IMG/VR virus record: IMGVR_UViG_3300043436_004382
Location: 1 to 64,000 of that record
Source of the DNA: a virus
Strand: one strand, 5' to 3'
Length of the DNA: 64,000 nucleotides
Shown here: in pieces, positions 13,585-61,396 of the stretch
Layout of the letters: every line of letters begins with the position of its first letter
How positions within the stretch are numbered: position 1 is the first letter of the stretch
Made by a program: the position numbers and the translations under genes
The notes under the pieces: model-generated
Databases searched by the model: none
What the model was told of the DNA's origin: nothing
What the model saw: only the letters and a program-made list of their open reading frames with translations

Positions 13585-14580
13585 CTAGGCTTTGATGGAA
13601 TACTGATCGAGCCAGTATTGAATCATTTCATCCAACATTGTTTCAAACGTGTAATCATGAGACCACCCAGTAGCCCTAACCAATTTGCTTGGATCTCCCT
13701 TTAGATCATGAAGTTCTTCAGGCCTAAGAAACTTCTCATCAGTTTTGACCCAGTCTTGCCAATTCAATTCCAGTTTAGAAAAGACGTATTCGCATAGATC
13801 CCTAACCGAATGGGATACTCCAGTTGCGCAAACAAAATCTCCAGGCTTATCCAATTGTAGAATTTCCCACATTGCTCTAACGTAATCCTTGGCATGACCC
13901 CAATCTCGAGTCGCACCCAGATTACCGAGTCTAAGTTCATTAGAAAGACCTAACTTGATCTTCACGGCCTCCTTACACACCTTATTGGTAACGAAATTCG
14001 TTCCGCGTCTTGGAGACTCGTGATTGAACAGGATTCCGTTAGACACGTACATGTTATATGAATTTCTGTAATTTCTTGAAATATTATAAGAAAACACTTT
14101 TGCACAACCGTAAGGGGAAACCGGATTCATTTGAGTCGTTTCTCTTTGGTAACCGTCCTTGTCTATTGAATTACCGAACATTTCTGAAGAAGAGGCTTGA
14201 TATACTCTAGAGTCAGGCTTAATCATTCTTACGGCTTCAAGCAGATTTAGCGTGCTTAATCCAGTTGCATGGGCCGTGTATACGGGTTGATCAAAGGAAA
14301 TCCTAACATGTGATTGAGCAGCTAAGTTATAGATCTCGTCTGGCATAATCTCTTGAACAACTCTGATCAGCGACGACAGATCAGTAACATCAGCATAGTG
14401 AAGTTTAACCCTTGCATAAATATCATCGGCCAATCGGGCCGTTTGATTCTCAGAAATTGAATTTCTTTTTAATGTTCCGTGTACTTCGTATCCCTTGTCC
14501 AATAGGAATTCTGCTAAGTACGAACCGTCCTGTCCGTTTATTCCGGTGATTAGCGCTTTTTTATTTTCTTGCTGTTTCAT
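13585..14580 (-). CDS. gmd: GDP-mannose 4,6-dehydratase
   Basis: ALITGINGQDGSYLAEFLLDKGYEVHG N-terminus and overall similarity to Gmd. Confidence 0.85.
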   Translation of the reverse strand: MKQQENKKALITGINGQDGSYLAEFLLDKGYEVHGTLKRNSISENQTARLADDIYARVKLHYADVTDLSSLIRVVQEIMPDEIYNLAAQSHVRISFDQPVYTAHATGLSTLNLLEAVRMIKPDSRVYQASSSEMFGNSIDKDGYQRETTQMNPVSPYGCAKVFSYNISRNYRNSYNMYVSNGILFNHESPRRGTNFVTNKVCKEAVKIKLGLSNELRLGNLGATRDWGHAKDYVRAMWEILQLDKPGDFVCATGVSHSVRDLCEYVFSKLELNWQDWVKTDEKFLRPEELHDLKGDPSKLVRATGWSHDYTFETMLDEMIQYWLDQYSIKA

Positions 14581-28006: not shown

Positions 28007-28696
28007 TTAACCTATGTATTTAGCAAAGTTAACGGCAGCTTTGTAGGCATCCTCATAAGAATGAATCGTTTTACTTCCACGCAACTTAAAAGGAATATGA
28101 CCTACTGCCCATTTGTTTAGAGTGAATTCCTCTTCCTTATGATCAGATCCACTTTGTACCCACTCAGAGTATTCAGTTTGAAATTCTCCCAAATACTTTG
28201 CGTAATGCTTTTCAAGAGCAAGCAATTCATCGTCGGTTGGAACCCAATTTGCATCGAATAACTTGTCGCCCTTACCGAAAGCACAGGCAGCTCTATGTGA
28301 GTAACCTATCCACTGCTTTGCCTCTTTGCTCCAGGCAGTATGAGGATGAGAACCCTTTGTTGCTCTCAAGCCGTTATTGTAGTACCACCAACCCTCTTCG
28401 ATTGAGCCAACGTACTTTCCATCGGGGTTCATGCACGAATTCGGCAATGTGTACTCGTCATTTGGTCCAAACTTGTGAGTCTCAACCTTAAGACCCGTGT
28501 TCTTTTTAATCACCTCAATGCAGTCAGGATTTACGACCCAACCGTTCTCATCTCTAAACGGAGTTATGCGACTGACTAACTTGGTGAATCCAAGGTTCAG
28601 GTGAATTTTATTTAGCTTATCTTTTCCTGAATAGTGAGGAAACTTTTCAAACTTAAGTCTGATCTTTCCCAAATAGGGTGTAGTGTTTTTAATCAT
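28007..28696 (-). CDS. Hypothetical protein
   Basis: 229-aa ORF; no recognisable motif. Confidence 0.45.
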   Translation of the reverse strand: MIKNTTPYLGKIRLKFEKFPHYSGKDKLNKIHLNLGFTKLVSRITPFRDENGWVVNPDCIEVIKKNTGLKVETHKFGPNDEYTLPNSCMNPDGKYVGSIEEGWWYYNNGLRATKGSHPHTAWSKEAKQWIGYSHRAACAFGKGDKLFDANWVPTDDELLALEKHYAKYLGEFQTEYSEWVQSGSDHKEEEFTLNKWAVGHIPFKLRGSKTIHSYEDAYKAAVNFAKYIG

Positions 28697-29249: not shown

Positions 29250-30086
29250 TTACTTGACATTGTACATCATGTTTGTACCTGCTCCCAATTGAGTTGTCGG
29301 TAGTGTACCGTTCCATTTCTCAATCCACATTTGCTGTAAGAGCATTGGTGTAATTGACGATTGCTTCAATCGATAAGATTCAGCTTCTGCTTTTGCTTGA
29401 GTCAACATGGCTTGAGCATTACCTTCAGCCTTTGCTACCTGGATCTTTGCGTTCGCCTCAGCCGTTTTTACCTGATTCTCAGCGGTCAATGCGGTCTGTA
29501 CTGCATTATTCTTAGCTTCAATCGCTTTCTTAAATGTTTCAGGATAACCTAAGTTCGAGGTCAATTGGCTTATTGTGAAACCTTCTTTAAGAAGATCCTC
29601 GTCCAATTTAGCTCGTACTTTATTTTCAAAGATTTGGCGGTTTGAGATAAGCTCTTCTGCTGTGTAGGCATTAGCTGTCATACGAAATGCATCGTATAGA
29701 GTAGTCTTCAAGAACCCTTCCTCAATAGATTCCAATGTTCTACGGTACTTGCTAAATATTGCTGGTACCTTTTCGCGTTGAACCGCGTAATTTATGATTG
29801 GGCTTACGTGAAACTCTGATCCATCCTTTGAATTGATCACAAATGATTGGTCTTCCGTGTACTCCTTGTGTTGGATAAAGGTTGGGAACTCGTAAATCTT
29901 GGTGGAAATTGGATTGTAAAAAACCATTCCGGTACATTCAGTAACGTCTCCGACGCCCTTACCAGTTCCATACAGGTTTACTCTGACTCCGACGTGTCCA
30001 GCGTCGATACGTTCGCATGAGTTCATCAATAGAGTCAATGCGGTAAAAAAGCCGATTACGGCTAGGATTAATTTTCCTCTGTTCAT
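29250..30086 (-). CDS. SPFH/band-7 (prohibitin/HflC-like) domain protein with signal peptide
   Basis: Lipoprotein-like signal LLMNSC; AGHVGVRVNLYGTGKGV..VTECTGMVFYNP..AEANAKIQVAKAEGNAQA typical of the SPFH family. Confidence 0.6.
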   Translation of the reverse strand: MNRGKLILAVIGFFTALTLLMNSCERIDAGHVGVRVNLYGTGKGVGDVTECTGMVFYNPISTKIYEFPTFIQHKEYTEDQSFVINSKDGSEFHVSPIINYAVQREKVPAIFSKYRRTLESIEEGFLKTTLYDAFRMTANAYTAEELISNRQIFENKVRAKLDEDLLKEGFTISQLTSNLGYPETFKKAIEAKNNAVQTALTAENQVKTAEANAKIQVAKAEGNAQAMLTQAKAEAESYRLKQSSITPMLLQQMWIEKWNGTLPTTQLGAGTNMMYNVK

Positions 30087-30115
30087 TTTTATTTGTTTTT
30101 AAGTTGTTTAAATAA

Positions 30116-30346
30116 TTAGTGATACTTAGAGTCTTCTGTTTCTTCGAACTTCTTTTCTATCCAGTCTCCCACCCTTTTCCAAATGTAGGTTCCTGATAAG
30201 AAAGCAATTCCAGTAAGTACCATGACTCCAAGCCAAAATAGCGGAGTGCTAGGTTGATTCATTAGCCAAAAAGCCAAGTGTATTGATTCGAAACCTATCG
30301 CTAAGCATAGGACGAATATTGCGATTTGTTTGATTTTATTCTTCAT
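30116..30346 (-). CDS. Small membrane protein (two TM helices)
   Basis: 76-aa ORF with two hydrophobic helices. Confidence 0.4.
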   Translation of the reverse strand: MKNKIKQIAIFVLCLAIGFESIHLAFWLMNQPSTPLFWLGVMVLTGIAFLSGTYIWKRVGDWIEKKFEETEDSKYH

Positions 30347-31561: not shown

Positions 31562-32059
31562 TCAATTTCCCTCAATTGGTTTAGTTGTGGGCATCTTTTT
31601 TACGGCATCAGCAATCGCTTTCTTTAGAGCAGTAGATAAAGTTGTCTTGTCGAATGGGATTTGATCGTCATTTAATTGAATGAACACCATTTGTGCAGAA
31701 GTTTCTTCAGCTCCACGGCCTTCGTATGAAAGACCGGCCATGTGGATCTTAATCATCACCTCAGTCGTTTGAACTGCTCCACCGACTCCTCCAACCGTGA
31801 AGCTCTTTTTTGGAGTTCCAACGTAGGCAACCTCGATCCCTATGGGCTCACCTGTCTGGCAGATTTGGTACTTATTGGAAAGCTCTTCTTCGGCGATCTG
31901 GCGAATCCCGAATGTGATCCTGCGATTCTTTAATTCCTTTATCTTAGCCGTCGTGTAGACTGTATCTACCTTGACACAGGTCTGGCTTTGTAAGGTTTGA
32001 CTAGAGACTTGAAGTTGTACTCCAAGGATAAGGGTTAAAAAGAAGATAAACTGTTTCAT
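31562..32059 (-). CDS. Secreted hypothetical protein
   Basis: Signal peptide MKQFIFFLTLILGVQLQVSSQ. Confidence 0.45.
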   Translation of the reverse strand: MKQFIFFLTLILGVQLQVSSQTLQSQTCVKVDTVYTTAKIKELKNRRITFGIRQIAEEELSNKYQICQTGEPIGIEVAYVGTPKKSFTVGGVGGAVQTTEVMIKIHMAGLSYEGRGAEETSAQMVFIQLNDDQIPFDKTTLSTALKKAIADAVKKMPTTKPIEGN

Positions 32060-32069
32060 GTGATTGTTT

Positions 32070-34436
32070 TTATTTTATTAAGCCGGTTTTGACGATATAG
32101 AAATTCGTAGTTCCGCCGGAGGTTAAGGTAGGTGTCGTTATGGACTGAACTCCAGGATGAGTTGAGACTAAATTACTTGAACTTGAGTTTATGGTTGACC
32201 ATTGTGATGCTGTGAATATTCTGTAATTTGGAGTAGAGTACGGCCACGTAGAAATTAATCCGCTTCTTTTAGCATGAACTACGAATACATCAGCAATTGA
32301 TAGAATTCCATTAGAGTTAGCGTCCATTCGATAATAGTCTTTCGATACAAATGATTGGTACAGGACCTTTTGATTAAAGGACAACGCATCTGCTGAGCTT
32401 GGAGAGTCGACTATCGCTGTGTTGATATTGATCGTAAAATCGTGTTGATTAACGCTTAATGAAGTAGAGAATGAGTAGCTTCCGTTTGCAGCAGTTGTCG
32501 AAGAGCTCAATAAGTTGTACACCAAGTCAGTCTTTAATTTATAGGTCAGGTTGACCACAACATTTTGAATTCCGGTATTCTCAGCATTGTACACAAAGCC
32601 GGCATGAGTGAATGGCGCAACTGTGATTGTTCCAGCAGCAGAGAACGCATTTCCGCAAGTACCGCTACTCAGCTGAACTCTGAACAGAGTACCGTCTGTT
32701 TGGTTTGAGTATGAATTAGTTGTTCCAGTATTTGCAATATCGGTCCATGTTACTCCAGAATTTGTTGATCTTTGCCATTTGACAATTGTTCCGGTGTGAC
32801 CGCTCAAGGTCAAAGTTCCTGAATTTGTCGCGGTTGGATGAACTGCTGATGACACCGATCCGCCAGTCGGTGGAGTTCCGGAAGTCACCGTAATTATTTT
32901 TGAATCTGAAAATACTGCGCTTCCGCAGCTAGGAGTCTGCACCTCAACTCGATAATAATAAGTTCCAGCAGTATTAACTGTTTGTGTTAAGCTTGTGCTG
33001 GTGTTTGCAATATCCGTCCAATTTACGTTATTGACCGAACGTTGCCATTTATTTACATTACCTTGTTGACCGGACAGGGTCAATTCAGCCAGACCGCCTG
33101 AACATATTGAGTTGTTTGCAGCGAATACTGTGCCGGCTCTGGTCGGTTTAACTGATAAAAATACGCTTGATGTTGCGAGTCCTGCGCACGAGACTGGGCT
33201 CGTTGAATTTACGATTGCCCTATAGTAAGTTGTCCTAGTTAGGTTAGTAATTGTTAGGGTTGATGAGGTGCTTGAAATTGTTGTCCCAGCTGTAAAGAAA
33301 TTATCAAGCGAAGATTCCCAACGTACTACTGACCCCGTTAAATTAGTTAGAGTTAGAGTTGTACTGTTTGAACCTGAGCATACATTAATATTTCCACCCG
33401 TGATATAACCGCTTGAAGAATTACTAATTTCAACAGCCCTAGTCAGAATTGTAACACTGCTTGTAATATCTCCAGGCATGTCCCCATACTCGCAAAGGTA
33501 TCCGCCTAGAATCGTGTTAGGTAAATCGTTCCATTGTCCTAGATTAGCAGAATAGAACTGACCATAATGCTCACCACCTGAATTGTTGGGTTCTCCTGGC
33601 GCCCACTTAGCGTATTGGCCAGATACGGTGGTTGGACCTGAGCCAGTATTACCGTTTGAAAAGTTGATTCCTTTTTCGGGACCTGATATCCAGTGCCATC
33701 TACCCTCAACTGCGGCTTGACTGGCAAATGCTGTGGTTCCCTTTGCTGAGTTTACCAAGCCAACTTCGTCCGATGCACCGAACCAGCAATCACTGGCCAT
33801 TAGTCGCCAAACAAAATTATTTTCAGCTTCCGATGACATTGTTGCTAAATAGCCTGCTCTACCAAAATAAGATCGAGCTTGAGCAGAGGTTACTGAGTTT
33901 GTAAAGGTTATTGAGCCAGCTACGTATTCATAAAAGTGCTCAGTGAGAGGATTATAGAAAACTGCTCCAGCTACGAATGTTACTCTTCTTTGTAGTGCAT
34001 AACACGTCGTAGTGGTCGATCTAAATTCGACTCCTCTCAATACCGTTTGCCAGTCGGAAGCGGATGCTGTTCCACTAAATGCAAGTATTCCAGTAGTAGT
34101 ATTAAAGGACGAGCTAACTCCAGAAGGCAGAGTCCCAGTAGAGCGTAATTGATCTCCGCTCGTATATGTTTGTGAAATTTGAACCCTGAAGCCAGTGATG
34201 GTTCCATTCGCCGTTATTGTAATATTAGGATCAACCTTTGTCCAAGTATTGTACGTAGCTGACAAGGTTGAGGTACTGGAAGTTCCAAGATTAACTGAGG
34301 TCGCTTGAGCCATCGCTAATTTAGGGAATAGTAAAGCGAACGCAAGTATTATTAAAATAATGTTTTTCATATTTAAAGTACAAGTCTTGTTCCAATTGTT
34401 ATCGTGTAGTTCAACACATTTTGATTTATGGCCCAC
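32070..34436 (-). CDS. Large secreted surface/adhesin-like protein with a C-type lectin-like domain, Ig-like repeats and a dockerin/EF-hand-like C-terminal segment
   Basis: WAPGEPNNSGGEHYGQF...GQWNDLPN is a classic CTLD EPN/WND signature. The N-terminus has a TM/signal. Repeated ..KWQRS..W(T)DIANT.. modules. Confidence 0.55.
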   Translation of the reverse strand: MGHKSKCVELHDNNWNKTCTLNMKNIILIILAFALLFPKLAMAQATSVNLGTSSTSTLSATYNTWTKVDPNITITANGTITGFRVQISQTYTSGDQLRSTGTLPSGVSSSFNTTTGILAFSGTASASDWQTVLRGVEFRSTTTTCYALQRRVTFVAGAVFYNPLTEHFYEYVAGSITFTNSVTSAQARSYFGRAGYLATMSSEAENNFVWRLMASDCWFGASDEVGLVNSAKGTTAFASQAAVEGRWHWISGPEKGINFSNGNTGSGPTTVSGQYAKWAPGEPNNSGGEHYGQFYSANLGQWNDLPNTILGGYLCEYGDMPGDITSSVTILTRAVEISNSSSGYITGGNINVCSGSNSTTLTLTNLTGSVVRWESSLDNFFTAGTTISSTSSTLTITNLTRTTYYRAIVNSTSPVSCAGLATSSVFLSVKPTRAGTVFAANNSICSGGLAELTLSGQQGNVNKWQRSVNNVNWTDIANTSTSLTQTVNTAGTYYYRVEVQTPSCGSAVFSDSKIITVTSGTPPTGGSVSSAVHPTATNSGTLTLSGHTGTIVKWQRSTNSGVTWTDIANTGTTNSYSNQTDGTLFRVQLSSGTCGNAFSAAGTITVAPFTHAGFVYNAENTGIQNVVVNLTYKLKTDLVYNLLSSSTTAANGSYSFSTSLSVNQHDFTININTAIVDSPSSADALSFNQKVLYQSFVSKDYYRMDANSNGILSIADVFVVHAKRSGLISTWPYSTPNYRIFTASQWSTINSSSSNLVSTHPGVQSITTPTLTSGGTTNFYIVKTGLIK

Positions 34437-36202
34437 GCTCCTCCCCAGTTTATGTTGAATCTAAAGTTCTTTGTCACCTTAACGTTAGTTCCAATATTCG
34501 GTAGAATAACATAAGGAGACTGTAATAAAATATCGTTGTAGTAACTCACGTATGGAGCGTAAACTCCAAGCGCCATAAGCTTAATGTCTAGCTTTTTACT
34601 GACTCTCCAGTCGTACATTCCTCCAGCAATTAGAGCGGTTCCTAAAAAAGCTTCATCGTATACTTCTCCAACTGAAGCAGACGCCATGTACACAAGTTTT
34701 AATCTTTTAGATTTTCCAATATCTCTCATCTGGCCGAATGCAACACTATTATAGATCGAACCCTTACCTTCAAATCCAACAGTTAGAGTATTTGAAAGTA
34801 ATGTGATTCGTTTAGGCTTCATCCATGCATAGAAACCAGTAATGTTAGGCCCTTTGATTGCGGTTGTGTAGTCAAATAGAAATCCATGAGATCTACGCTG
34901 ATCGTATCTAACTGACGTGTAGTTGCCATTAATCTTTCCACCGAATGCAACATCGCCGTCTTTAAAATTAAAGCCGGCTAAATCGCTACCTGCAACAACA
35001 GTAGGTTTTAATCCATTCTTTGAATTGCCTGTTCCATTAGTAGGTGTTGATCTAACTGCGTTAGTTGAACCACTTAGTGCATCTGTTTTCTTGTCTTCAG
35101 CTGCTGCTTCTGTCTTAGTTGAACCGGCGCTCGAAGATCCTGAACCATCGCTTGAGCTGCCTGAACTCGAGCTGCTGGTCGATCCACCAGTTGAACTCGA
35201 CGATCCTGAGCCTGATCCTGAACCAGCAGTTGAGCTAGAAGATCCTGAACTAGATCCGCCAGTTGAACTCGACGATCCTGAGCCTGATCCTGAACCAGTA
35301 GTTGAACTCGACGAGCTTGGGCTAGTAGTTGAGCTAGAAGATCCTGAACTAGATCCGCCAGTTGAACTCGACGAGCTTGGGCTAGTAGTTGAGCTAGAAG
35401 ATCCTGAACTAGATCCGCCAGTTGAACTCGACGATCCTGAGCCTGATCCTGAACCAGTAGTTGAGCTAGAAGATCCTGAACTAGAGGTTGATGATCCACT
35501 AGTCGATCCTCCGCCTACAGGCTGCTGAGGCGTCGAACTTCCTCCTTGAGTTGAACCGCTCTGAGATTGTGGCGTTCCTGTAGAAGATTGAGTTGAGCTT
35601 CCAGTAGATCCAGCAGTTGAGCTTGATCCGCCTGAGCCCTGTCCGCTTGCCGAAGTAGATCCAGCAGGCTGAGAACTTCCGCTGGAAGAATTTGAGGAAT
35701 TTGTTGATTGAGGCGTTCCTTGTCCGCCTGCGTCATTTGATTTAGTCTTTTTAGAATTACTACTTCTACTTCTACTTCTACTTGATCCATCCGACCCACC
35801 GCTTCCGCTGGTAACCGAAGAAGTCAAGCCTCCCAACGAATTAACACTTCCTAACGCATCACTGATTGTAGTTAATGATCCCATTATTGAGATCATTGTC
35901 ATTGCTGTATTTTGAGTAAGTGAAACGACGGTAGATGTTCCGATGCCTGCACATGGCGAAACTTGGCTGTATGAGTTAAACACCGAATTTGCCCATGAGT
36001 CAAACGTTCCATTTGAAAAGTCAGCTTCGTTAAAAACTCGTACTTGATTGTAGTAAGTTACAGCAACAGAATTTGAGCCGGCAGGAATTACAATTCTTTC
36101 GGTTTTTCCATTACATGGATTCACATAACTGTAGGTAAAGCTTTGAGCCATTGCTGACAAAGCTGTACATAATACAATTAATGTTATGAGTATCCTTTTC
36201 AT
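34373..36202 (-). CDS. Secreted protein with a long Ser/Gly/Thr-rich low-complexity region and a C-terminal predicted beta-barrel (outer-membrane protein-like)
   Basis: Signal peptide. Tandem ~60-bp DNA repeats encode SSGSSSSTGG units. C-terminal ~250 aa has alternating hydrophobic beta-strands ending in ..ITIGTRLVL. Confidence 0.5.
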   Translation of the reverse strand: MKRILITLIVLCTALSAMAQSFTYSYVNPCNGKTERIVIPAGSNSVAVTYYNQVRVFNEADFSNGTFDSWANSVFNSYSQVSPCAGIGTSTVVSLTQNTAMTMISIMGSLTTISDALGSVNSLGGLTSSVTSGSGGSDGSSRSRSRSSNSKKTKSNDAGGQGTPQSTNSSNSSSGSSQPAGSTSASGQGSGGSSSTAGSTGSSTQSSTGTPQSQSGSTQGGSSTPQQPVGGGSTSGSSTSSSGSSSSTTGSGSGSGSSSSTGGSSSGSSSSTTSPSSSSSTGGSSSGSSSSTTSPSSSSSTTGSGSGSGSSSSTGGSSSGSSSSTAGSGSGSGSSSSTGGSTSSSSSGSSSDGSGSSSAGSTKTEAAAEDKKTDALSGSTNAVRSTPTNGTGNSKNGLKPTVVAGSDLAGFNFKDGDVAFGGKINGNYTSVRYDQRRSHGFLFDYTTAIKGPNITGFYAWMKPKRITLLSNTLTVGFEGKGSIYNSVAFGQMRDIGKSKRLKLVYMASASVGEVYDEAFLGTALIAGGMYDWRVSKKLDIKLMALGVYAPYVSYYNDILLQSPYVILPNIGTNVKVTKNFRFNINWGGAWAINQNVLNYTITIGTRLVL

Positions 36203-36918
36203 TATTGTTTAAAAACACCTTTCTTTATTAACTTTTGAACCACATGATAAGATGCGTATTCAAGAGATTTCTTAGTTGTGATTCCTATTGTCGATTGATT
36301 GAATTTAATTTCGTCAACATCATCGAGAATGGTTGACGTCTTAACCGTAGATGCTTCTCCTAAGCCTGAGCCCATGATGATTGATCCTGATTCAGCATCC
36401 ACAAATTTAATCTGTAATCCAAGCCGAGTGGTTTGAGTTGCTTTTGCTTGACCCTTCGCTTTTACAACCTCGTCTTCTGATACTGAAAAATCATAAACTT
36501 CAATATAGACAAAGTACTTTGCCAATTTAACTTTTCCGCGGCCGTCAATTTTATTCTCAGTAAAACCTTTATCGCTTGCCTTGAATTGATTAACCATTCT
36601 TTCTTTAATCTCCTTTTTGTCTTCTGTAAATTCAAATCGGTTGGTCATTTCAAGATACTCAAGCACGATATTGGTAACACCAAGCCCGACGCGTTTGTCT
36701 TTTAATTCAGGATACATTTCATAAAGTTCCTCATTAATTCCAATTTTAAGTAGTTGAATTGGGATCTTAAGAGTGTCTGTGTATTCTGGCATTGAATCAA
36801 GAGATGCCTCTTTTTCAAAGCTTGCTTTATATTTGTCAGTTTTAATACTGCCGATCGTTTGGGATTTAGCTGAGAAAGCCAAAGCCAAGCCTAGCAGTAA
36901 GCATATAATGTTTTTCAT
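36202..36918 (-). CDS. Secreted hypothetical protein
   Basis: Signal peptide MKNIICLLLGLALAFSAKSQT. Confidence 0.45.
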   Translation of the reverse strand: MKNIICLLLGLALAFSAKSQTIGSIKTDKYKASFEKEASLDSMPEYTDTLKIPIQLLKIGINEELYEMYPELKDKRVGLGVTNIVLEYLEMTNRFEFTEDKKEIKERMVNQFKASDKGFTENKIDGRGKVKLAKYFVYIEVYDFSVSEDEVVKAKGQAKATQTTRLGLQIKFVDAESGSIIMGSGLGEASTVKTSTILDDVDEIKFNQSTIGITTKKSLEYASYHVVQKLIKKGVFKQ

Positions 36919-36932
36919 AATTTGTGAATAGT

Positions 36933-36970
36933 AAAAAGGGCGGTCAAAGACCGCCCTTATTTTTTTAAAA
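36933..36970. terminator. Rho-independent terminator
   Basis: AAAGGGCGGTC-AAA-GACCGCCCTT followed by TTTTTTT. Confidence 0.55.
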
Positions 36971-36971
36971 A

Positions 36972-37376
36972 TTAAGCTAGAGGTTCTTCGTCCGATAATT
37001 CAGACTCAGCCGTGATCGGGCTTACCGGTTTAGCGTTTGGTTCTGCAATATTTGATAATGAGAAACCGTCCTCTTCGTCAACCTTTTGAATCAGCATTTT
37101 ATCTCTGTCTTCAGAGTTGAACCAGTAGTCAACCACTTTATTTAGGTTACCAACGAAAGCTCCTAATAAGATTAGCAACATCTCTTTCCAATCTTCATTG
37201 ATTGTAGCTCCTATGAATACGCCAGCATTAATACCAACAATAATCAATGTGAATAAACCTAATACGATGGCAGTAATTCTCCAACGATTAGCTTGCATTT
37301 GTTGTAACATGTAGTAGAATCGGTTCTTGTCTTCAACCTTTACATATTCATTACTACCTGAAAACCATTTTTTCAT
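36972..37376 (-). CDS. Membrane protein
   Basis: Two TM helices (ITAIVLGLFTLIIVGINAGVFIG; LLILLGAFVGNL). Confidence 0.4.
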   Translation of the reverse strand: MKKWFSGSNEYVKVEDKNRFYYMLQQMQANRWRITAIVLGLFTLIIVGINAGVFIGATINEDWKEMLLILLGAFVGNLNKVVDYWFNSEDRDKMLIQKVDEEDGFSLSNIAEPNAKPVSPITAESELSDEEPLA

Positions 37377-37527
37377 TTTTTACGATTTGTTTTTTTAGCG
37401 GTCGAAAAAGTCAGGCGGCCAAAATCGCTCAGACTCTTCTTCCTTCATTTGTCTTTTGGCTTCAAAGAAAATCCATGTTAAAAACAGGATTGCCTCGATG
37501 CCAAGCGTTAAAAGAACGTATTTCATA

Positions 37528-37866
37528 TTACCAAGGTGAATCCTCAGTTTCGCTCTTCTTTTCCGCTTTCTTTTCTTCTTTAGCAGCCGCTGGTTTTTCA
37601 ACGATTGTTTTTTCTTTGATCACGGTGGTTGTGCCTCCGCCGTTTGCCATGTTCTTAGAAGAATTATCAACGTTTAAGTTGATGACTGGAGCCGCAGCTG
37701 GTGCAACTTGCTCAGTTTTAGTTTCTTCCTTATCGTGACCTCCGAATAGAGTGGTTGTGAAGTAGGTTCCACCTGCCATAACTGCTGTTGTTGCAACACC
37801 AATTATTGTTTTCTTTAATCCTGACCAAGTTCCGTCATTGGTCTCTACGTTTTGTTCGTCTGACAT
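37528..37866 (-). CDS. Hypothetical membrane-associated protein
   Basis: 112-aa ORF with a TM segment IIGVATTAVMAGGTYFTTTLFGG. Confidence 0.35.
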   Translation of the reverse strand: MSDEQNVETNDGTWSGLKKTIIGVATTAVMAGGTYFTTTLFGGHDKEETKTEQVAPAAAPVINLNVDNSSKNMANGGGTTTVIKEKTIVEKPAAAKEEKKAEKKSETEDSPW

Positions 37867-37884
37867 ACAGATTTCCGTTTTTTT

Positions 37885-39807
37885 TTAGTTTTTGATTATT
37901 CTTTTTGCAGTGATTCGGTTATCACTAGTTGTTTGTAAAACTGCTGTGTAAGTTCCAGGAGTCAAGAAGCCTAGATCTGCTGAGTATCTGTATTTTCCTT
38001 CAGGTATTTGTTCGTTAATTATCTCTATTACGTTCTTACCGTCTAGTGTATAAACTGATACAACTGCTCTAGTGTCTTCTTTAACGCTGAAAATTACCTG
38101 AATTTGTCCTTGTGTTGGATTAGGATAAACTTCAAAATCTTCAACACCAATATTAAATCCTCCACCCATGACTCTCAATACTGAGACCATTCCGTTTGTT
38201 GGAGTGATTACCATATCTCTGGCTGAAGCGTCTCCTGCGAATTTACGAGTAGTATACAAAGGACTTTTACCCCATTCGTCTTGAGGCTTAAGTGCTGCGA
38301 ATTGAATAGTAACTACTTCTTCGCCATTGTTCATTAAGTTATCTTTACCGGTTGGATCAAATCCTCCCCATTCAACTACTCCATTCGATGGATTAACGAA
38401 TGCCATCCATTTTTGAGATTTTTCAGTGCCGTTAACACCTCTGAACTCCAATAGAGATTCATCGTACTTTAGAGCTAATTGAAGAGCTCCTACTCGATCC
38501 GAACCGTTAGTTAAAACCTTTACTGGAATATTAACTAGGTTACCTTCTTCTACTGATAATTTAGGAACGTTAACCTCCATTACTGAAAGAGTTAAATTAT
38601 CGTATTCAACGGTTTCATCAATTACGTATTTGTGAGCATTTGCTGGGTTAACAATTGGAATTGGAGTTAAACGTGCCATGTTATAACCGGTACCGTTAGC
38701 ATCACCAGGAGAAGCAACATAGAACTTAACAGAGTCTACTACTCCGCCACTAATTGTGTAATAAAGTTCGGTTGTACCTGGAATGGTTGATCTATAATTA
38801 GTAGATGATCCGTTAATTGTTGAGTATTCTGAAGCAGAGAAGAATAACACATCTTTAACAGAATTCGGCCATGTGCTGAAACGGCCAGCGATTCTTCCGA
38901 ATACACCGTAAACGTCAGCAACGGTAATTCCGTTTGATCCGTTAACGTCTCCTGTGTAGTAGTCAAAACCAGTAGGAGTAGCTACTCCTAACATCCAGTC
39001 ATTGATTTTTTGAGCATCTGCGGTTGAGACGATGTTACCTACGCTAAGAGTATCACCTTTAACATAGAGGCGAGCATCATAGTAAGTAGTATCAACATCT
39101 TCTGAGAAAGAGAATTTACCTAGAGTGTTAGTTGTGTAGGTAGCAACCTGAGTCCAAGTAGAACCAGTTTTAGGCTTTTTCTCTAAAGCCAGAGTTAAGT
39201 TCTTTGCTGGAGATCCAGTCACGTTTGCGAATTCACCACGAAAATTAAGCTTAACGTTTTTCATGACTCCACCGTAACTATAAAGAGCTAATGTGTCATC
39301 TAAACCGTTAATGTTCGCAGAGCTCGCTGGGAAAGTGGTTGTTCCGGTAATCGCGAGATTTGAAATTGAAGTGTACGTGTGGAAGTTTATTGAGTGAGTA
39401 AATTCAACGTTGAATTGTCTTCCGTCTGGAATAGTGAATGTTGAACTAGAACCGGTGTACGCGATGGTAATTGTGATATTACCCTCAGTGGAGTCAACCA
39501 CGTAATTCAGGCTTTGTGACCAGCTAGTATTGGCTGAGGTAACAACTGGATTTGCGCCGGCAAATGCAGTCTTGTCATACCATACTCTGAACTGGAGACC
39601 TGTAATTTTTGTGGAAGTTGGATTGGCATAGCAGAAGCTAGCATAGGTTTTGCCCGAAGCAACAGTTCCGACCTGGTACGAAGAATCGATCAGGACGTAA
39701 GGTGTTGCTGAGGTTGGTGCCACTGGACAAGTTTGTGCAGCAACCTGATTGGAAATGCCTACTAATAAGAGGCACACCCCAAGAAATAAAGCTTGGATTT
39801 GTTTCAT
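37885..39807 (-). CDS. Secreted protein with a C-terminal type IX secretion system (T9SS) sorting domain
   Basis: Signal peptide MKQIQALFLGVCLLLVGISNQVAAQ. C-terminus VYPNPTQGQIQVIFSVKEDTRAVVSVYTLDGKNVIEIINE..YRYSADLGFLTPGTYTAVLQT matches the Por/T9SS C-terminal domain pattern. Confidence 0.6.
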   Translation of the reverse strand: MKQIQALFLGVCLLLVGISNQVAAQTCPVAPTSATPYVLIDSSYQVGTVASGKTYASFCYANPTSTKITGLQFRVWYDKTAFAGANPVVTSANTSWSQSLNYVVDSTEGNITITIAYTGSSSTFTIPDGRQFNVEFTHSINFHTYTSISNLAITGTTTFPASSANINGLDDTLALYSYGGVMKNVKLNFRGEFANVTGSPAKNLTLALEKKPKTGSTWTQVATYTTNTLGKFSFSEDVDTTYYDARLYVKGDTLSVGNIVSTADAQKINDWMLGVATPTGFDYYTGDVNGSNGITVADVYGVFGRIAGRFSTWPNSVKDVLFFSASEYSTINGSSTNYRSTIPGTTELYYTISGGVVDSVKFYVASPGDANGTGYNMARLTPIPIVNPANAHKYVIDETVEYDNLTLSVMEVNVPKLSVEEGNLVNIPVKVLTNGSDRVGALQLALKYDESLLEFRGVNGTEKSQKWMAFVNPSNGVVEWGGFDPTGKDNLMNNGEEVVTIQFAALKPQDEWGKSPLYTTRKFAGDASARDMVITPTNGMVSVLRVMGGGFNIGVEDFEVYPNPTQGQIQVIFSVKEDTRAVVSVYTLDGKNVIEIINEQIPEGKYRYSADLGFLTPGTYTAVLQTTSDNRITAKRIIKN

Positions 39808-39837: not shown

Positions 39838-39872
39838 ACAAATCTGCCCGAACCTAGGCTCGGGCAGAAAAA
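39838..39872 (-). terminator. Rho-independent terminator
   Basis: CTGCCCGAACCTAGGCTCGGGCAG hairpin with a T-run on the minus strand. Confidence 0.5.
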
Positions 39873-39893: not shown

Positions 39894-40067
39894 TTACTCT
39901 GAGCAGCAAGCTGTATCAGCCTTGATACTAGTTGTGTCAACTGCAGTTGCAGTCGAGTCAACTTGAGTTGTATCTTGACTAGTAGAAGTTGCCTCAGTCG
40001 CGGTATTTTGACAGCTTGTCAAAGCTCCAGCGAAGATCATTGCGATCGCGAAAAATAGATTTTTCAT
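39894..40067 (-). CDS. Small putative lipoprotein (57 aa; not in the ORF track)
   Basis: MKNLFFAIAMIFAGALTSCQNTAT... has a signal peptide with a lipobox-like LTSC; Thr/Ser-rich. Confidence 0.35.
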   Translation of the reverse strand: MKNLFFAIAMIFAGALTSCQNTATEATSTSQDTTQVDSTATAVDTTSIKADTACCSE

Positions 40068-40109: not shown

Positions 40110-40514
40110 CTACTTTTTAGCTCGGAGTTTCCCAAGAATAAATCGCTTGGCCTCAAGTTTGTCGCGGTTGCTTCGATTATTTGAACTTATCTCATAGGGA
40201 TGATTTTCATAACTCGTCCGATATTCGTGGTACTTATTCATGTCCTGTTGAAAATGAGTGTACTCATGAATGACCGTCGAACACCAACCCAATAAGGACC
40301 GGTGATACCTTGGGTTCAGAGTAATTGTATTGTTGTATTGCATGTACTGGCCAATGTACTCTAAATTAGAATCAAGCTTGATCTTTAGAGTTTTTAAATT
40401 AGCGTATTCGCTGGGCCCGTATTTTTCAATACACCAACTAAGAATTAACTTTGCACTTTTCAGATTGACGTGAGGGCTCATACTAGGATTATTTATTAGA
40501 CCTTTTAGGCCCAT
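40110..40514 (-). CDS. Small HExxH protein (putative zinc metallopeptidase, SprT/WLM-like)
   Basis: WCSTVIHEYTHFQQ motif. Confidence 0.45.
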   Translation of the reverse strand: MGLKGLINNPSMSPHVNLKSAKLILSWCIEKYGPSEYANLKTLKIKLDSNLEYIGQYMQYNNTITLNPRYHRSLLGWCSTVIHEYTHFQQDMNKYHEYRTSYENHPYEISSNNRSNRDKLEAKRFILGKLRAKK

Positions 40515-41385: not shown

Positions 41386-41691
41386 ATGCCAGCACCAATA
41401 CGCATAAGGCGAATAGTCCCAGCGAAAGCAGTCGGAGAAATATTTAGGGCGTTGAGCAGAAGACAATCTAATTGGCTACTGTGCGACGGTTCGAACTACA
41501 ATCCTCAAGAGTATCCAGAGTTAGCCGAAATTCTTTCCGGTTATGGAGCTGACTATGGGGTTTTGCCAGACTGTCGGCCTAGGAATTTTAGTGGTGAGGT
41601 TATCGACGCTTCTCCTGGCCAGATGATTGAAGGTTACGGTTCGTACATTCCTACGTATATCGTCGTAGCACAAGTCGGTAAACCTGTCTAG
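41386..41691 (+). CDS. Phage tail collar domain protein
   Basis: NWLLCDGSNYNPQEYPELAEILSG matches the tail-collar domain signature GWLLCDGS...YP.L. Confidence 0.55.
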   Translation: MPAPIRIRRIVPAKAVGEIFRALSRRQSNWLLCDGSNYNPQEYPELAEILSGYGADYGVLPDCRPRNFSGEVIDASPGQMIEGYGSYIPTYIVVAQVGKPV

Positions 41692-42829: not shown

Positions 42830-43290
42830 TATTGCTTTTTGGAATTTGTTTTCTTTTTAATCATTTCCTCTGGCGTAAGCAGTGCTCTGCCGTATTCCTT
42901 CATACGCTCAGCGTATCTCTCCTTGACTCTTTCGCTAATTGCAAGCGGAGTACCCTCATCGTCAATTCTTACGAACTTGATATTCGTATGTGTTACTACT
43001 GTCTGAAGGCCGGTGAAGACGTTGTGCTTACGAACCTCAATGTAGAGAGTAATTGATGTTGTTCCAAATTCCTTGACCTCACCGTAAACTTTTAGAATAT
43101 TACCTACCTTTACTGGCTTTGCAAAGATAAGCTCATCTATTTTTAAGGTCACGACTCTCTGAGTATCGCAGGTCTGAGATGCATAACTTGCGGAGGCATC
43201 GTCTATTATTGAAAGGATTGTTCCGCCGAACATGTTATCGTGAATTCCGATATCTCCTTTCTTACAGATGTATGTGCTAATTAATTCCAT
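42829..43290 (-). CDS. Hotdog-fold acyl-CoA thioesterase (YciA/4HBT-like)
   Basis: IGIHDNMFGGTILSIIDDASA ... pattern typical of the 4HBT family. Confidence 0.6.
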   Translation of the reverse strand: MELISTYICKKGDIGIHDNMFGGTILSIIDDASASYASQTCDTQRVVTLKIDELIFAKPVKVGNILKVYGEVKEFGTTSITLYIEVRKHNVFTGLQTVVTHTNIKFVRIDDEGTPLAISERVKERYAERMKEYGRALLTPEEMIKKKTNSKKQ

Positions 43291-43832
43291 GATTCTTCTA
43301 TACGATCGCCATCCGGTTTTGAGTAAACTATCTTGTTTGGATTTACCTCATACGCTTTGTTCTTGAATTTCTCAACGTATTTCTTGCCCATTCCAGGTTT
43401 TAAGTAACCGATCGTCGCATGTGGATGATAGTCCGGAAAATTGGTGGTGTGAGGTAGTTCGCTAAGCTTGGCATTAATTTCGTATAGAGCTGAGTTCTGA
43501 ACATCGAACTTCAGTACATCGTATTTCTCATTTTCAAATAGAGAAGCATTGACTAACATCAACGGACCTATTGGTCTAGACTTACAAATGTCCATTACAG
43601 TATCGTCATTGATCTCGTTTGAGTGAAGGCCGTAGAGTAGAGTGGTGTGAGGTTCATCCTCTAATCCAAAAGATCGATCGCCTTCTTCAGTATAAACGTC
43701 GTCTGAATCTATTTCAGCATGAAATTCCTGCATCTGTGGAAAATCGAAATACACCATGGCACAGCCATAGGAATGAGAATCGCCCTTCTTTTCAAAAAGA
43801 CCTGCGATGAATTGTGTGAATGATTTAATCAT
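43281..43832 (-). CDS. 2H-phosphoesterase superfamily protein (LigT / 2'-5' RNA ligase / cyclic phosphodiesterase-like)
   Basis: Two HxT motifs (HTTLLYGL and HATIGY) at the expected spacing. N-terminus MIKSFTQFIAGLF is motif-family-like. Confidence 0.6.
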   Translation of the reverse strand: MIKSFTQFIAGLFEKKGDSHSYGCAMVYFDFPQMQEFHAEIDSDDVYTEEGDRSFGLEDEPHTTLLYGLHSNEINDDTVMDICKSRPIGPLMLVNASLFENEKYDVLKFDVQNSALYEINAKLSELPHTTNFPDYHPHATIGYLKPGMGKKYVEKFKNKAYEVNPNKIVYSKPDGDRIEESWN

Positions 43833-61300: not shown

Positions 61301-61319
61301 GTTGTTCTATTTGTATTAG

Positions 61320-61396
61320 AGGTCAGGACAGGATTCGAACCTGTAATATAGTGCATCCAGTAGATGCTTGCGTCTGACCAATTCCGCCACCTGACT
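61320..61396 (-). ncRNA. tRNA-like element 1 (class II Leu-like D-arm, canonical T-arm, aberrant anticodon/variable region)
   Basis: AGTCAGG-TG-GCGGAATTGGTCAGACGC..AGCAT-CTACTGG-ATGCA..ACAGGTTCGAATCCTGT-CCTGACC. The 1-72 pair is mismatched and position 34 would be A. Confidence 0.4.

What the first reader, a model, noticed from the sequence alone, without database searches (positions are those of the whole stretch)
31562..39807. Host-surface cassette: C-type-lectin protein, beta-barrel protein, several signal-peptide proteins and a T9SS C-terminal-domain protein
Seven consecutive ORFs carry N-terminal signal peptides or TM helices. One (32070-34436) has a clean C-type lectin EPN/WND signature plus Ig-like repeats. 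One (34373-36202) has a Ser/Gly tandem-repeat stalk and a predicted C-terminal beta-barrel. One (37885-39807) ends in a type IX secretion sorting domain, which is exclusive to Bacteroidetes. A phage handing substrates to the host T9SS or outer membrane could remodel the cell surface (superinfection exclusion, adhesin masking), or these could be virion adhesins that borrowed host domains. This also pins the host phylum.
Basis: partly seen in the sequence, partly recalled or inferred. Interest (0 to 1): 0.65.

Follow-up and report, generated by a model that had tools for sequence, protein, structure and literature searches.

The report
Phage-encoded exported cell-envelope protein module
A large Flavobacterium-type phage carries a conserved seven-gene block of exported proteins: a host-secretion-tagged scaffold, a sugar-binding lectin, an outer-membrane barrel and two periplasmic proteins, which most likely rebuild the surface of the infected cell rather than the virus particle.

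Summary
On the minus strand, 31562-39807, seven consecutive genes (here G-F-E-D-C-B-A) encode five proteins with Sec-type signal peptides and two membrane-anchored ones.

- **G:** a cohesin domain and a type A T9SS sorting domain, both above curated cut-offs.
- **B:** a C-type lectin domain with EPN/WND, three Ig-like repeats, and a C-terminal transthyretin-like plus dockerin-like module that G also carries.
- **D and A:** paralogues with the CsgG/PelC/LptE/LpoB fold.

The block keeps the same gene order in 80 viral metagenome contigs. With the lectin gene moved, it also occurs in cultured Flavobacterium phage immuto. Its flanks differ between phages. It lies among replication and nucleotide-metabolism genes, far from immuto's structural genes.

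The cohesin and dockerin-like modules occur nowhere else in immuto or in the window.

Best reading (about 0.45): the infected cell exports these proteins. G leaves through the host T9SS, and the variable lectins dock on its cohesin. The biological role (adhesion or receptor shielding) is inferred only.

I found no published description. I rate it a new variant of a known kind, interest about 0.6.

The parts
37885..39807 (-). G: signal peptide, N-terminal domain (weakly cohesin-like), transthyretin-like plus dockerin-like module, cohesin, type A T9SS C-terminal sorting domain (640 aa)
   Evidence: Pfam Cohesin E 2.4e-12 and Por_Secre_tail E 1.6e-7. TIGR04183 E 5.6e-9. Of 41 homologues, 41 have the CTD and 34 have cohesin. 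N-terminal residues 63-149 give a weak cohesin match, E 0.012.
37888..38130 (-). G residues 560-640: T9SS type A sorting domain
   Evidence: PDB 8glj_D (Por CTD) E 0.008. It is the least conserved part of G, median identity 34.5%.
38185..38580 (-). G residues 410-541: cohesin domain
   Evidence: PF00963 scores 47.7 bits against a cut-off of 24.1.
38692..39282 (-). G residues 176-372: transthyretin-like sandwich, dockerin-like F-hand segments (residues 256-312, i.e. 38872-39042) and a conserved tail
   Evidence: Homologous to B residues 576-763, blastp E 3e-15. A profile of the module hits transthyretin folds in the PDB. Pfam Dockerin_1 is hit by 14/25 module homologues and 12/41 G homologues, never above the cut-off. 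Loop positions 1, 3 and 12 are the most conserved residues. This is the most conserved segment of G, 65%.
37528..37866 (-). F: 112-aa protein with an N-terminal TM anchor and a charged Lys/Glu/Pro-rich tail
   Evidence: Present in 80 of 81 loci, always next to G. The TM segment is kept in homologues. No family match.
36972..37376 (-). E: 134-aa two-TM membrane protein; optional member with a variable position in the block
   Evidence: Present in 56 of 81 loci, median identity 79%. Only weak SLATT and DUF456 matches.
36936..36958 (-). Terminator-like hairpin between E and D
   Evidence: 10-bp stem with 7 GC pairs, followed by a T run. A similar hairpin is seen in L003 upstream of D.
36202..36918 (-). 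D: signal peptide plus CsgG/PelC/LptE/LpoB-fold domain (238 aa); most conserved large component
34373..36202 (-). C: signal peptide, Cys-containing N-terminal domain (YSYxxPC motif), Ser/Gly/Thr linker (35018-35812), 12-stranded beta-barrel (34376-35002)
   Evidence: The architecture is kept while the linker length varies between homologues.
32070..34370 (-). B: signal peptide, unknown N-terminal domain, C-type lectin domain (33471-33890), three Ig-like repeats (32640-33440), transthyretin-like plus dockerin-like module (32073-32645)
   Evidence: The heads vary between phages (CTLD, CTLD plus Laminin_G_3, GEVED, unknown) while the tail module is kept.
31562..32059 (-). A: signal peptide plus a short paralogue of D (165 aa)
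   Evidence: hhalign of the A family against the D family: probability 95.9%, E 5.5e-9 over 115 columns. Present in 70 of 81 loci at the end of the block.
39843..39868 (-). Strong terminator-like hairpin 35 nt upstream of G's start; marks the upstream boundary of the block
   Evidence: 11-bp stem with 7 GC pairs, followed by a T run.

Best explanation
This is a conserved phage 'envelope module'. It is expressed in the infected Flavobacterium-type cell and assembled in that cell's envelope, not in the virion.

**Proposed assembly**
1. All five signal-peptide proteins cross the inner membrane through Sec.
2. G is then recognised by its type A C-terminal domain and moved across the outer membrane by the host T9SS. 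It ends up attached to the surface or released.
3. G carries a cohesin domain. B (the lectin) and G itself carry a related Ca2+-loop dockerin-like module. The variable lectin heads are therefore predicted to dock on G, and G on G, giving a glycan-binding coat.
4. C inserts its 12-stranded barrel in the outer membrane. Its small N-terminal domain sits on a long Ser/Gly tether.
5. D and A, periplasmic CsgG/PelC/LptE-fold paralogues, are predicted to associate with the periplasmic face of the outer membrane or with C, as their structural relatives do.
6. F and E are inner-membrane partners of unknown role.

**Proposed effect**
The infected cell's surface is remodelled with Man/GlcNAc/Fuc-type (EPN) lectins. 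This would make the cell adhere to glycans on neighbouring cells or particles, or would shield receptors.

**Shown versus inferred**
- Shown: domain content, export signals, synteny, non-structural location, and restriction of cohesin and dockerin-like modules to this block.
- Inferred: localisation, all protein-protein contacts, and the biological role.
For: - **Export signals:** kept across the families. Full T9SS-substrate architecture in 41/41 G homologues. This matches the published definition of a substrate as Sec signal plus CTD, with type A CTDs handled by PorV (PMC12618676).
- **Cohesin:** above the Pfam cut-off.
- **Dockerin-like module:** shared by G and B. Pfam Dockerin_1 hits recur across homologues. 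Ca-loop positions 1, 3 and 12 are the most conserved. The segment is the most conserved part of G.
- **Partner domains:** found only in G and B orthologues when the immuto genome (record positions 2079-160410) and the window are searched in six frames.
- **B heads:** always binding modules (C-type lectin, ConA-like, GEVED, Ig-like), never enzymes.
- **Synteny:** order G-F-(E)-D-C-B-A in 80 viral contigs with varying flanks. D-C-B-A are spaced by -1, 2 and 10 nt.
- **Context:** non-structural in the window and in immuto.
- **Folds:** C barrel. D fold and D/A paralogy.
Against: - No experiment exists, and no multimer model could be run.
- The window's own G and B modules do not hit Pfam Dockerin_1 at E<=1. 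No homologue passes its cut-off (best 20 bits against 22.9). The first F-hand is degenerate.
- B, C, D and A lack a T9SS domain, so how B would reach the surface is unexplained. It may stay periplasmic.
- D is not a lipoprotein in most members and shows no obvious transmembrane hairpins, unlike CsgG.
- The D model has only moderate confidence (pLDDT 64).
- A terminator-like hairpin splits the block into G-F-E and D-C-B-A, so the two halves might be functionally independent.
- In immuto the G orthologue is annotated as two ORFs. The cohesin-CTD part lacks its own signal peptide.
Confidence: 0.45

Rival explanations
1. Same exported module, but it acts mainly inside the periplasm and outer membrane. 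B binds periplasmic or outer-membrane glycans: O-glycosylated proteins, LPS or capsule intermediates, or peptidoglycan. D and A modulate envelope machinery. C tethers the outer membrane. The aim would be to stabilise or re-programme the envelope during a long infection. Only G leaves the cell.
For: B, C, D and A have only Sec signals and no T9SS domain. D's structural relatives (LpoB, LptE, PelC, CsgG) all work at the periplasmic face of the outer membrane. D-like domains act as extracytoplasmic modules of bacterial Ser/Thr kinases. The N- and C-termini of a 12-stranded barrel are periplasmic unless the linker is threaded through it (established topology of even-stranded barrels).
Against: It does not explain why a cohesin protein destined for T9SS export is invariably co-encoded with dockerin-like lectins. 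The polymorphic binding heads of B look like surface-exposed recognition modules.
Confidence: 0.2
2. The block is a superinfection-exclusion or progeny-protection device. The exported proteins mask or block T9SS- or gliding-associated phage receptors, or block DNA entry. In this reading the lectin and cohesin parts only target the proteins to the receptor.
Against: Known exclusion proteins are single, small and fast-evolving. Here seven genes are co-conserved, with D at 66-81% and E at 60-94% identity across divergent phages. Nothing in the data points to a particular receptor.
Confidence: 0.15
3. B and G are virion adhesins (fibres or decorations). They are either assembled normally or captured by particles after lysis.
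For: Ig-like and lectin domains are common on phage particles (PMC7824862). B has a variable head on a conserved anchoring module, like a receptor-binding protein.
Against: Signal peptides and a T9SS sorting domain are incompatible with cytoplasmic virion assembly. The block is 65 kb or more from immuto's structural genes. No other immuto ORF carries a cohesin or dockerin-like partner. PHROGs gives no structural match.
Confidence: 0.05
4. A lysis or egress device: holin- and spanin-like E and F plus outer-membrane components that help disrupt the envelope.
For: E (two TM segments) and F (type II membrane protein with a charged periplasmic tail) resemble a holin and an i-spanin in outline. In the window an endolysin gene lies 740 nt away.
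Against: The endolysin is on the other strand. Its immuto orthologue (gp191, next to an annotated holin) lies 30 kb from the block. E is missing from 25 of 81 loci. E and D are far more conserved than lysis genes usually are. A lectin, a cohesin and a T9SS signal have no place in lysis.
Confidence: 0.05

Closest known systems
T9SS type A cargo proteins of Bacteroidota (e.g. F. johnsoniae ChiA, P. gingivalis gingipains)
   Same: G has an N-terminal Sec signal and a C-terminal TIGR04183/PF18962 domain at the very end of the protein, above the curated cut-offs.
   Different: G is encoded by a virulent-type large phage rather than the host. It carries cohesin and dockerin-like modules instead of an enzyme. 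Its secretion has not been tested.
Cellulosomal and non-cellulosomal cohesin-dockerin systems (scaffoldin plus dockerin-bearing subunits)
   Same: A cohesin-bearing protein with a surface-targeting signal is co-encoded with proteins carrying a Ca2+-loop dockerin-like module. The scaffold also carries its own dockerin-like module, as scaffoldins do.
   Different: There is one clear cohesin. The dockerin-like part has only one canonical F-hand, is embedded between a transthyretin-like sandwich and a conserved tail, and never passes the Pfam cut-off. The docked subunits are lectins, not enzymes. The setting is a Gram-negative host with a T9SS, and the system is phage-encoded.
Animal-type C-type lectins with an EPN motif (langerin, mannose-binding protein, SP-D, CEL-I)
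   Same: B residues about 161-300 align to them, with EPN and WND at the Ca2+/sugar site.
   Different: The inner cysteine pair is replaced (EHYG and LPNT in the langerin alignment, as in CEL-I at the first position). The domain is fused to Ig_7 repeats and a dockerin-like tail. Sugar specificity is only predicted.
Type Va autotransporters and KdgM/NanC 12-stranded barrels
   Different: No Pfam Autotransporter or KdgM match. No helical plug is predicted before the barrel. The 'passenger' is only about 110 aa, on a 265-aa Ser/Gly tether. The topology of the N-terminal domain is unknown.
CsgG / PelC / LptE / LpoB periplasmic-face outer-membrane lipoproteins
   Different: D has no conserved lipobox and no evident transmembrane hairpins. 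Nothing is known of its oligomeric state. It is phage-restricted, with only 256 clusters at 50% identity.
Phage-encoded outer-membrane or surface proteins (lambda Lom and Bor, T5 Llp; outer-membrane barrels in viral metagenomes)
   Same: Phage genes whose products go to the host envelope. BFVD holds phage barrels, including 'autotransporter beta-domain' proteins, that resemble C.
   Different: Those are single genes. This is a seven-gene syntenic block that uses the T9SS.

Membership tests
T9SS type A substrate | N-terminal Sec signal peptide | tested here: met
   Basic-hydrophobic N-terminus ending AAQ/T, kept in 55/55 G homologues. This was judged by a hydrophobicity heuristic, not SignalP.
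T9SS type A substrate | C-terminal sorting domain (TIGR04183 / PF18962) at the extreme C-terminus, above the curated cut-off | tested here: met
   35.9 bits against 23, and 31.9 bits against 27, at residues 560-640 of 640. Present in 41/41 homologues.
T9SS type A substrate | T9SS- and PorV-dependent secretion with removal of the CTD | not testable with these tools
   Needs expression in wild-type and T9SS-mutant Flavobacterium.
Cohesin-dockerin system | Cohesin domain (PF00963) above the cut-off | tested here: met
   47.7 bits against 24.1. Found in 34/41 homologues at E<=0.01.
Cohesin-dockerin system | Dockerin (PF00404), two F-hand segments | tested here: inconclusive
   The window's own G and B modules give no hit at E<=1. 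Of the module homologues 14/25 hit, and of the G homologues 12/41 hit (best E 7.8e-5). None passes the 22.9-bit cut-off. The second segment is a canonical 12-residue loop. The first is degenerate.
Cohesin-dockerin system | Conserved Ca2+-coordinating loop residues (positions 1, 3, 12) | tested here: met
   In the 25-sequence B+G module alignment, N114 and D123 are invariant and D112 is nearly invariant.
Cohesin-dockerin system | Physical Ca2+-dependent cohesin-dockerin binding | not testable with these tools
   No multimer prediction or binding assay was available.
C-type lectin domain (PF00059) | Profile match above the cut-off | tested here: inconclusive
   Window B scores 19.7 bits against 22.6. 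Orthologues pass at 57.3, 35.6 and 32.0 bits. PDB langerin E 5e-5.
C-type lectin domain (PF00059) | EPN and WND motifs at the Ca2+ site 2 positions | tested here: met
   They align to the langerin and CEL-I motifs. The pair is present in 36/50 B homologues at constant spacing.
C-type lectin domain (PF00059) | Ca2+-dependent sugar binding | not testable with these tools
   Needs a glycan array or binding assay.
Type Va autotransporter | C-terminal 12-stranded beta-barrel | tested here: met
Type Va autotransporter | Autotransporter beta-domain profile (Pfam), a helical linker in the pore, and a large passenger | tested here: not met
   No Pfam hit even at E<=10. The sequence before the barrel is Ser/Gly/Thr low complexity. 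The N-terminal domain is only about 110 aa.
CsgG family (PF03783) | CsgG-like fold | tested here: met
CsgG family (PF03783) | Direct profile match above the cut-off | tested here: not met
   D gives no Pfam hit at E<=0.1. The link is transitive only: the D profile finds proteins that pass CsgG at 39-46 bits.
CsgG family (PF03783) | Lipoprotein signal (lipobox Cys) | tested here: not met
   The D family consensus has no conserved Cys after the signal peptide. Only a few members have one.

The most novel reading that the evidence does not exclude
A large, environmentally abundant clade of virulent Flavobacteriia phages carries its own cohesin-dockerin surface-display system and hijacks the host T9SS to install it. 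A phage scaffold (G) is exported and then decorated with interchangeable phage lectins (B). A phage-built outer-membrane barrel (C) with two CsgG-fold partners (D, A) provides the anchor or a second export route. The infected cell thereby becomes a sticky 'virocell' that binds neighbouring hosts or particles.
Probability: 0.25. Interest if true: 0.8.

Novelty: new variant of a known kind. Interest (0 to 1): 0.6.

Why it matters
Phages are known to send single proteins to the host envelope. I could not find a described case of a conserved multi-gene envelope module that includes a bona fide T9SS substrate and a cohesin/dockerin-type pair (full-text searches).

The central gene D has 5839 homologue clusters at 90% identity in public metagenomes. 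It occurs in viral contigs from about 6 kb fragments up to 434 kb. Whatever the module does, it is therefore common in nature.

If the proposed assembly is right, four things follow.
- Virulent phages would be shown to exploit the T9SS as an export route.
- Phage-driven changes in flavobacterial adhesion and aggregation, which matter for particle colonisation and carbon turnover, would become testable.
- The system would supply a compact, orthogonal cohesin-dockerin pair for surface display in Bacteroidota.
- It would give a host-phylum marker for uncultured phages.

Tried and rejected
- **Megablast** of 30-42 kb against GenBank phages found nothing. Only protein-level searches found the immuto phages.
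- **PHROGs** gave no usable match for any of the seven proteins.
- **Sequence search of D and of the A family against the PDB** gave only chance-level hits, ribosomal proteins uL3 and S1. Structure prediction was needed instead.
- **The sigma-70 promoter scan** matched the random expectation (19 found against 19.4 expected). The Bacteroidota -7 motif TAnnTTTG was absent upstream of G and D in nearly all loci.
- **The ATATTTAT motif** is seen upstream of G in many loci. In the window it occurs once (14416-14423), not near the block and no more often than chance, so I dropped it.
- **A small lipoprotein ORF upstream of G** (39894-40067) recurs only in the closest relative, L003, so I do not count it as part of the module.
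- **Link to lysis** was rejected. The endolysin's immuto orthologue and its annotated holin are 30 kb from the block, and the window has no holin homologue.
- **Virion decoration through cohesin-dockerin** was rejected for lack of any partner domain outside the block.
- **Host-derived operon:** I considered this. The one scan of 185,579 species genomes found only two MAG contigs that look like phage. That scan used only two peptide patterns.
- **Pfam on C's barrel and on C's N-terminal domain** gave nothing even at E<=10.
Full report
**Anatomy**

The finding covers seven tightly packed minus-strand genes. I label them in transcription order.

| Label | Coordinates | Length |
|---|---|---|
| G | 37885-39807 | 640 aa |
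| F | 37528-37866 | 112 aa |
| E | 36972-37376 | 134 aa |
| D | 36202-36918 | 238 aa |
| C | 34373-36202 | 609 aa |
| B | 32070-34370 | 766 aa |
| A | 31562-32059 | 165 aa |

- B's true start is the ATG at 34370, not the GTG at 34436.
- Gaps between genes are 18, 151, 53, -1, 2 and 10 nt.
- A strong terminator-like hairpin (39843-39868) lies just upstream of G. A second one (36936-36958) lies between E and D.
- The overlapping 68-aa ORF at 37395-37601 and the plus-strand ORFs inside C's repeat region have no homologues, so I disregard them.

**Export signals**

- A, B, C, D and G begin with a basic-hydrophobic segment ending in AQ or SQ. Almost all non-redundant homologues keep it: 55/55 for G, 48/50 for B, 49/53 for D and 44/45 for A.
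- F has a conserved N-terminal TM anchor. E has internal TM segments.
- Nine of the 12 signal- or TM-like N-termini among 92 presumptive minus-strand genes fall in 28.7-40.1 kb.
- These calls rest on a hydrophobicity heuristic, not on SignalP.

**G**

- Pfam finds Cohesin (residues 410-541, 47.7 bits, cut-off 24.1) and Por_Secre_tail (560-638, 31.9 bits, cut-off 27).
- NCBIfam TIGR04183, the T9SS type A sorting domain, scores 35.9 bits against 23.
- All 41 tested homologues have the sorting domain and 34 have the cohesin.
- This is the canonical substrate architecture: a Sec signal plus a CTD, with type A CTDs handled by PorV (PMC12618676).
- The N-terminal domain gives a weak second cohesin match, E 0.012.

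**B**

- Residues about 161-300 are a C-type lectin domain.
  - PDB phmmer hits langerin (5e-5), CEL-I (1e-4), SP-D and MBP, with EPN (260-262) and WND (280-282) aligned.
  - Pfam Lectin_C is just below its cut-off for this protein, 19.7 against 22.6.
  - It is well above the cut-off in orthologues, 57.3 bits for immuto gp013.
- Residues 311-577 hold three Ig-like repeats (Ig_7, 28.7 bits, cut-off 27.3).
- Across phages the head of B varies: lectin alone, lectin with an inserted ConA-like Laminin_G_3 domain, a GEVED domain, or unknown domains. Of 50 homologues, 36 keep EPN...WND.
- The last 190 or so residues are always kept.

**A shared dockerin-like module**

- B residues 576-763 are homologous to G residues 176-368, blastp E 3e-15.
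- A profile of 25 such modules matches transthyretin-type sandwiches in its first part.
- Fourteen of the 25 members, and 12 of 41 G homologues, hit Pfam Dockerin_1. The best E-value is 7.8e-5. None passes the cut-off, and the window's own two modules do not hit.
- The segment reads as a degenerate F-hand followed by a canonical one. In G this is GDTLSVGNIVSTAD...GDVNGSNGITVAD.
- The positions that would coordinate Ca2+ (loop positions 1, 3 and 12) are the most conserved residues of the whole module.
- This segment is the most conserved part of G (65% median identity). The sorting domain is the least conserved (34.5%).
- Family-specific HMMs were searched against six-frame translations of the immuto genome (record positions 2079-160410) and of the window. 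They find cohesin and dockerin-like modules only in the G and B orthologues.
- I conclude that a cohesin-dockerin-type pairing between G and B, and possibly G and G, is the best-supported interaction. It remains an inference.

**C**

- After the signal peptide comes a domain of about 110 aa with a conserved YSYxxPC motif.
- Next is a linker, residues 131-395, that is 45% Ser, 20% Gly and 13% Thr. It is built from DNA tandem repeats, for example a 60-nt unit in 2.2 copies at 100% match.
- The last 215 residues were modelled with 42 homologues. They give 12 antiparallel strands at pLDDT 84 and pTM 0.75.
- The three-part architecture is kept in homologues while the linker length varies widely.
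- Pfam sees nothing in the barrel, and no plug helix is evident. C therefore resembles an autotransporter or a KdgM porin without being a demonstrable member of either family.
- BFVD shows that outer-membrane barrels, some annotated as autotransporter beta-domains, do occur in uncultured phages.

**D and A**

- D is the most conserved large protein, 66-81% identity over 81 loci.
- D has 5839 homologue clusters at 90% identity but only 256 clusters at 50% identity.
- Its AlphaFold model is of moderate quality, pLDDT 64.
- The D profile reaches bacterial proteins that pass Pfam CsgG and LpoB cut-offs. Some of these are fused to Ser/Thr kinases or caspases.
- D itself gives no Pfam hit and has no conserved lipobox.
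- A is a shorter paralogue of D: hhalign probability 95.9%, E 5.5e-9.

**Conservation and context**

- A scan of viral contigs with D returned 164 relatives, of which 80 loci were kept.
- In every locus long enough, the order is G-F-(E)-D-C-B-A. In some, A precedes B or E follows D. The flanking genes differ between loci.
- The only cultured relatives are the 160-kb Flavobacterium phages vB_FspM_immuto. There gp013-gp019 form the same block, with the lectin gene moved to the front.
- In immuto the block sits at 10.5-16.4 kb, between nucleases/RNR and thioredoxin/queuosine genes. Baseplate and fibre genes are at 82-101 kb, and packaging, head and tail genes lie beyond 119 kb.
- In the window the neighbours are helicase, topoisomerase II, RNA ligases, PRPP synthetase, thioredoxin, metallophosphoesterase, SPFH, a Tad6-like protein and an endolysin.
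- The genome-collection scan found only two MAG contigs, one Bacteroidetes and one Flavobacterium sp..
- The host phylum is thus supported by the T9SS signal, by the cultured relative and by the MAG bins.

**Interpretation**

The data show a coherent, co-inherited set of exported envelope proteins in a non-structural region. I commit to the following reading.

- The infected cell exports the proteins.
- G leaves through the T9SS.
- The lectins dock on G's cohesin through their dockerin-like tails.
- C is an outer-membrane anchor with a tethered domain.
- D and A work at the periplasmic face of the outer membrane, like their structural relatives.

The result would be a glycan-binding surface coat. 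Confidence is about 0.45.

The main uncertainty is how the proteins without a CTD would cross the outer membrane. The periplasmic rival therefore keeps 0.2. Superinfection exclusion (0.15) is a possible purpose rather than a different mechanism. Virion adhesins and lysis are poorly supported (0.05 each), for the reasons given under the rival explanations.

**Novelty**

Every domain is known. The combination is what appears new: a conserved phage module that includes a T9SS substrate and a cohesin/dockerin-type pair.

It was not found in the searchable literature. That includes the immuto-host paper and a jumbo-phage comparative survey. The library is incomplete, so this absence is not proof. 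I classify the finding as a new variant of a known kind, namely phage-encoded host-envelope proteins.

Noticed in passing
window 5597-29075 and 61319-61396 (mostly 22232-25811): 23 tRNA genes on the minus strand. One at 19730-19802 has anticodon TCA, which reads UGA. It is 73 nt long, so it looks like an opal-suppressor type rather than a true selenocysteine tRNA. Large conserved ORFs in the window are intact under the standard code, and only gene A of the block ends in TGA.
   Followed up: partly
window 28007-28696 (-): The protein matches Pfam Tad6, a type I Thoeris inhibitor, at E 7.8e-22 and 78 bits. This is a likely anti-defence gene.
   Followed up: no
window 43281-43832 (-): Weak matches to the 2'-5' RNA ligase / 2H phosphoesterase family and to anti-CBASS Acb1 (E about 3e-4, below the cut-offs). 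A possible cyclic-nucleotide-degrading anti-defence enzyme.
   Followed up: no
window 39894-40067 (-): A 57-aa ORF with a lipoprotein-type signal (MKNLFFAIAMIFAGALTSC...) and a Thr/Ser/Asp-rich tail. It lies just before the terminator upstream of G. A similar ORF exists only in the closest relative, L003.
   Followed up: partly
window 40110-40514 (-) and 41386-41691 (+): An HExxH protein with a weak DUF6782 metallopeptidase match lies upstream of the block. It is linked to the block only in L003 and L023-L027. A 101-aa ORF with a phage tail collar domain (30 bits, cut-off 24) follows the endolysin directly.
   Followed up: no
L001 9520-11344 (immuto gp014/gp015): In all immuto isolates the G orthologue is annotated as two ORFs, 1 nt apart and in different frames. 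The split falls at the linker between the dockerin-like and cohesin parts. The cohesin-CTD half has no signal peptide of its own. This could be a frameshift (programmed or a sequencing error) or a genuine split.
   Followed up: partly
L084 27173-37989 (immuto 49-60 kb): Immuto carries a cluster of glycosyltransferases, WecE aminotransferases, a GDP-mannose-dependent mannosyltransferase and a sugar epimerase. This would be a second way to alter surface glycans, and it could relate to a mannose-type lectin. Of seven genes from this cluster used as queries, only the epimerase gave a weak hit in the window (23% identity).
   Followed up: partly
L004-L081, 30-45 nt upstream of G: A recurrent ATATTTAT-like motif lies upstream of G in many related phages. 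It is absent upstream of G in the window and in L003. In the window it occurs once (14416-14423), no more often than chance. It may be a clade-specific promoter element.
   Followed up: partly
P0249, P0252, P0266, P0284, P0313 (bacterial proteins): D-like CsgG/LpoB-type domains occur fused to caspase (Peptidase_C14) domains and to Ser/Thr protein kinases in bacteria. In those proteins the fold probably serves as an extracytoplasmic sensor or anchoring module.
   Followed up: partly
window 29250-30346 (-): An SPFH/Band 7 protein with an N-terminal TM segment, followed by a 76-aa two-TM protein. These lie shortly downstream of the block, after the zinc-ribbon, thioredoxin and metallophosphoesterase genes, and extend the run of membrane proteins. 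Among the fetched loci they are found only in L003.
   Followed up: no
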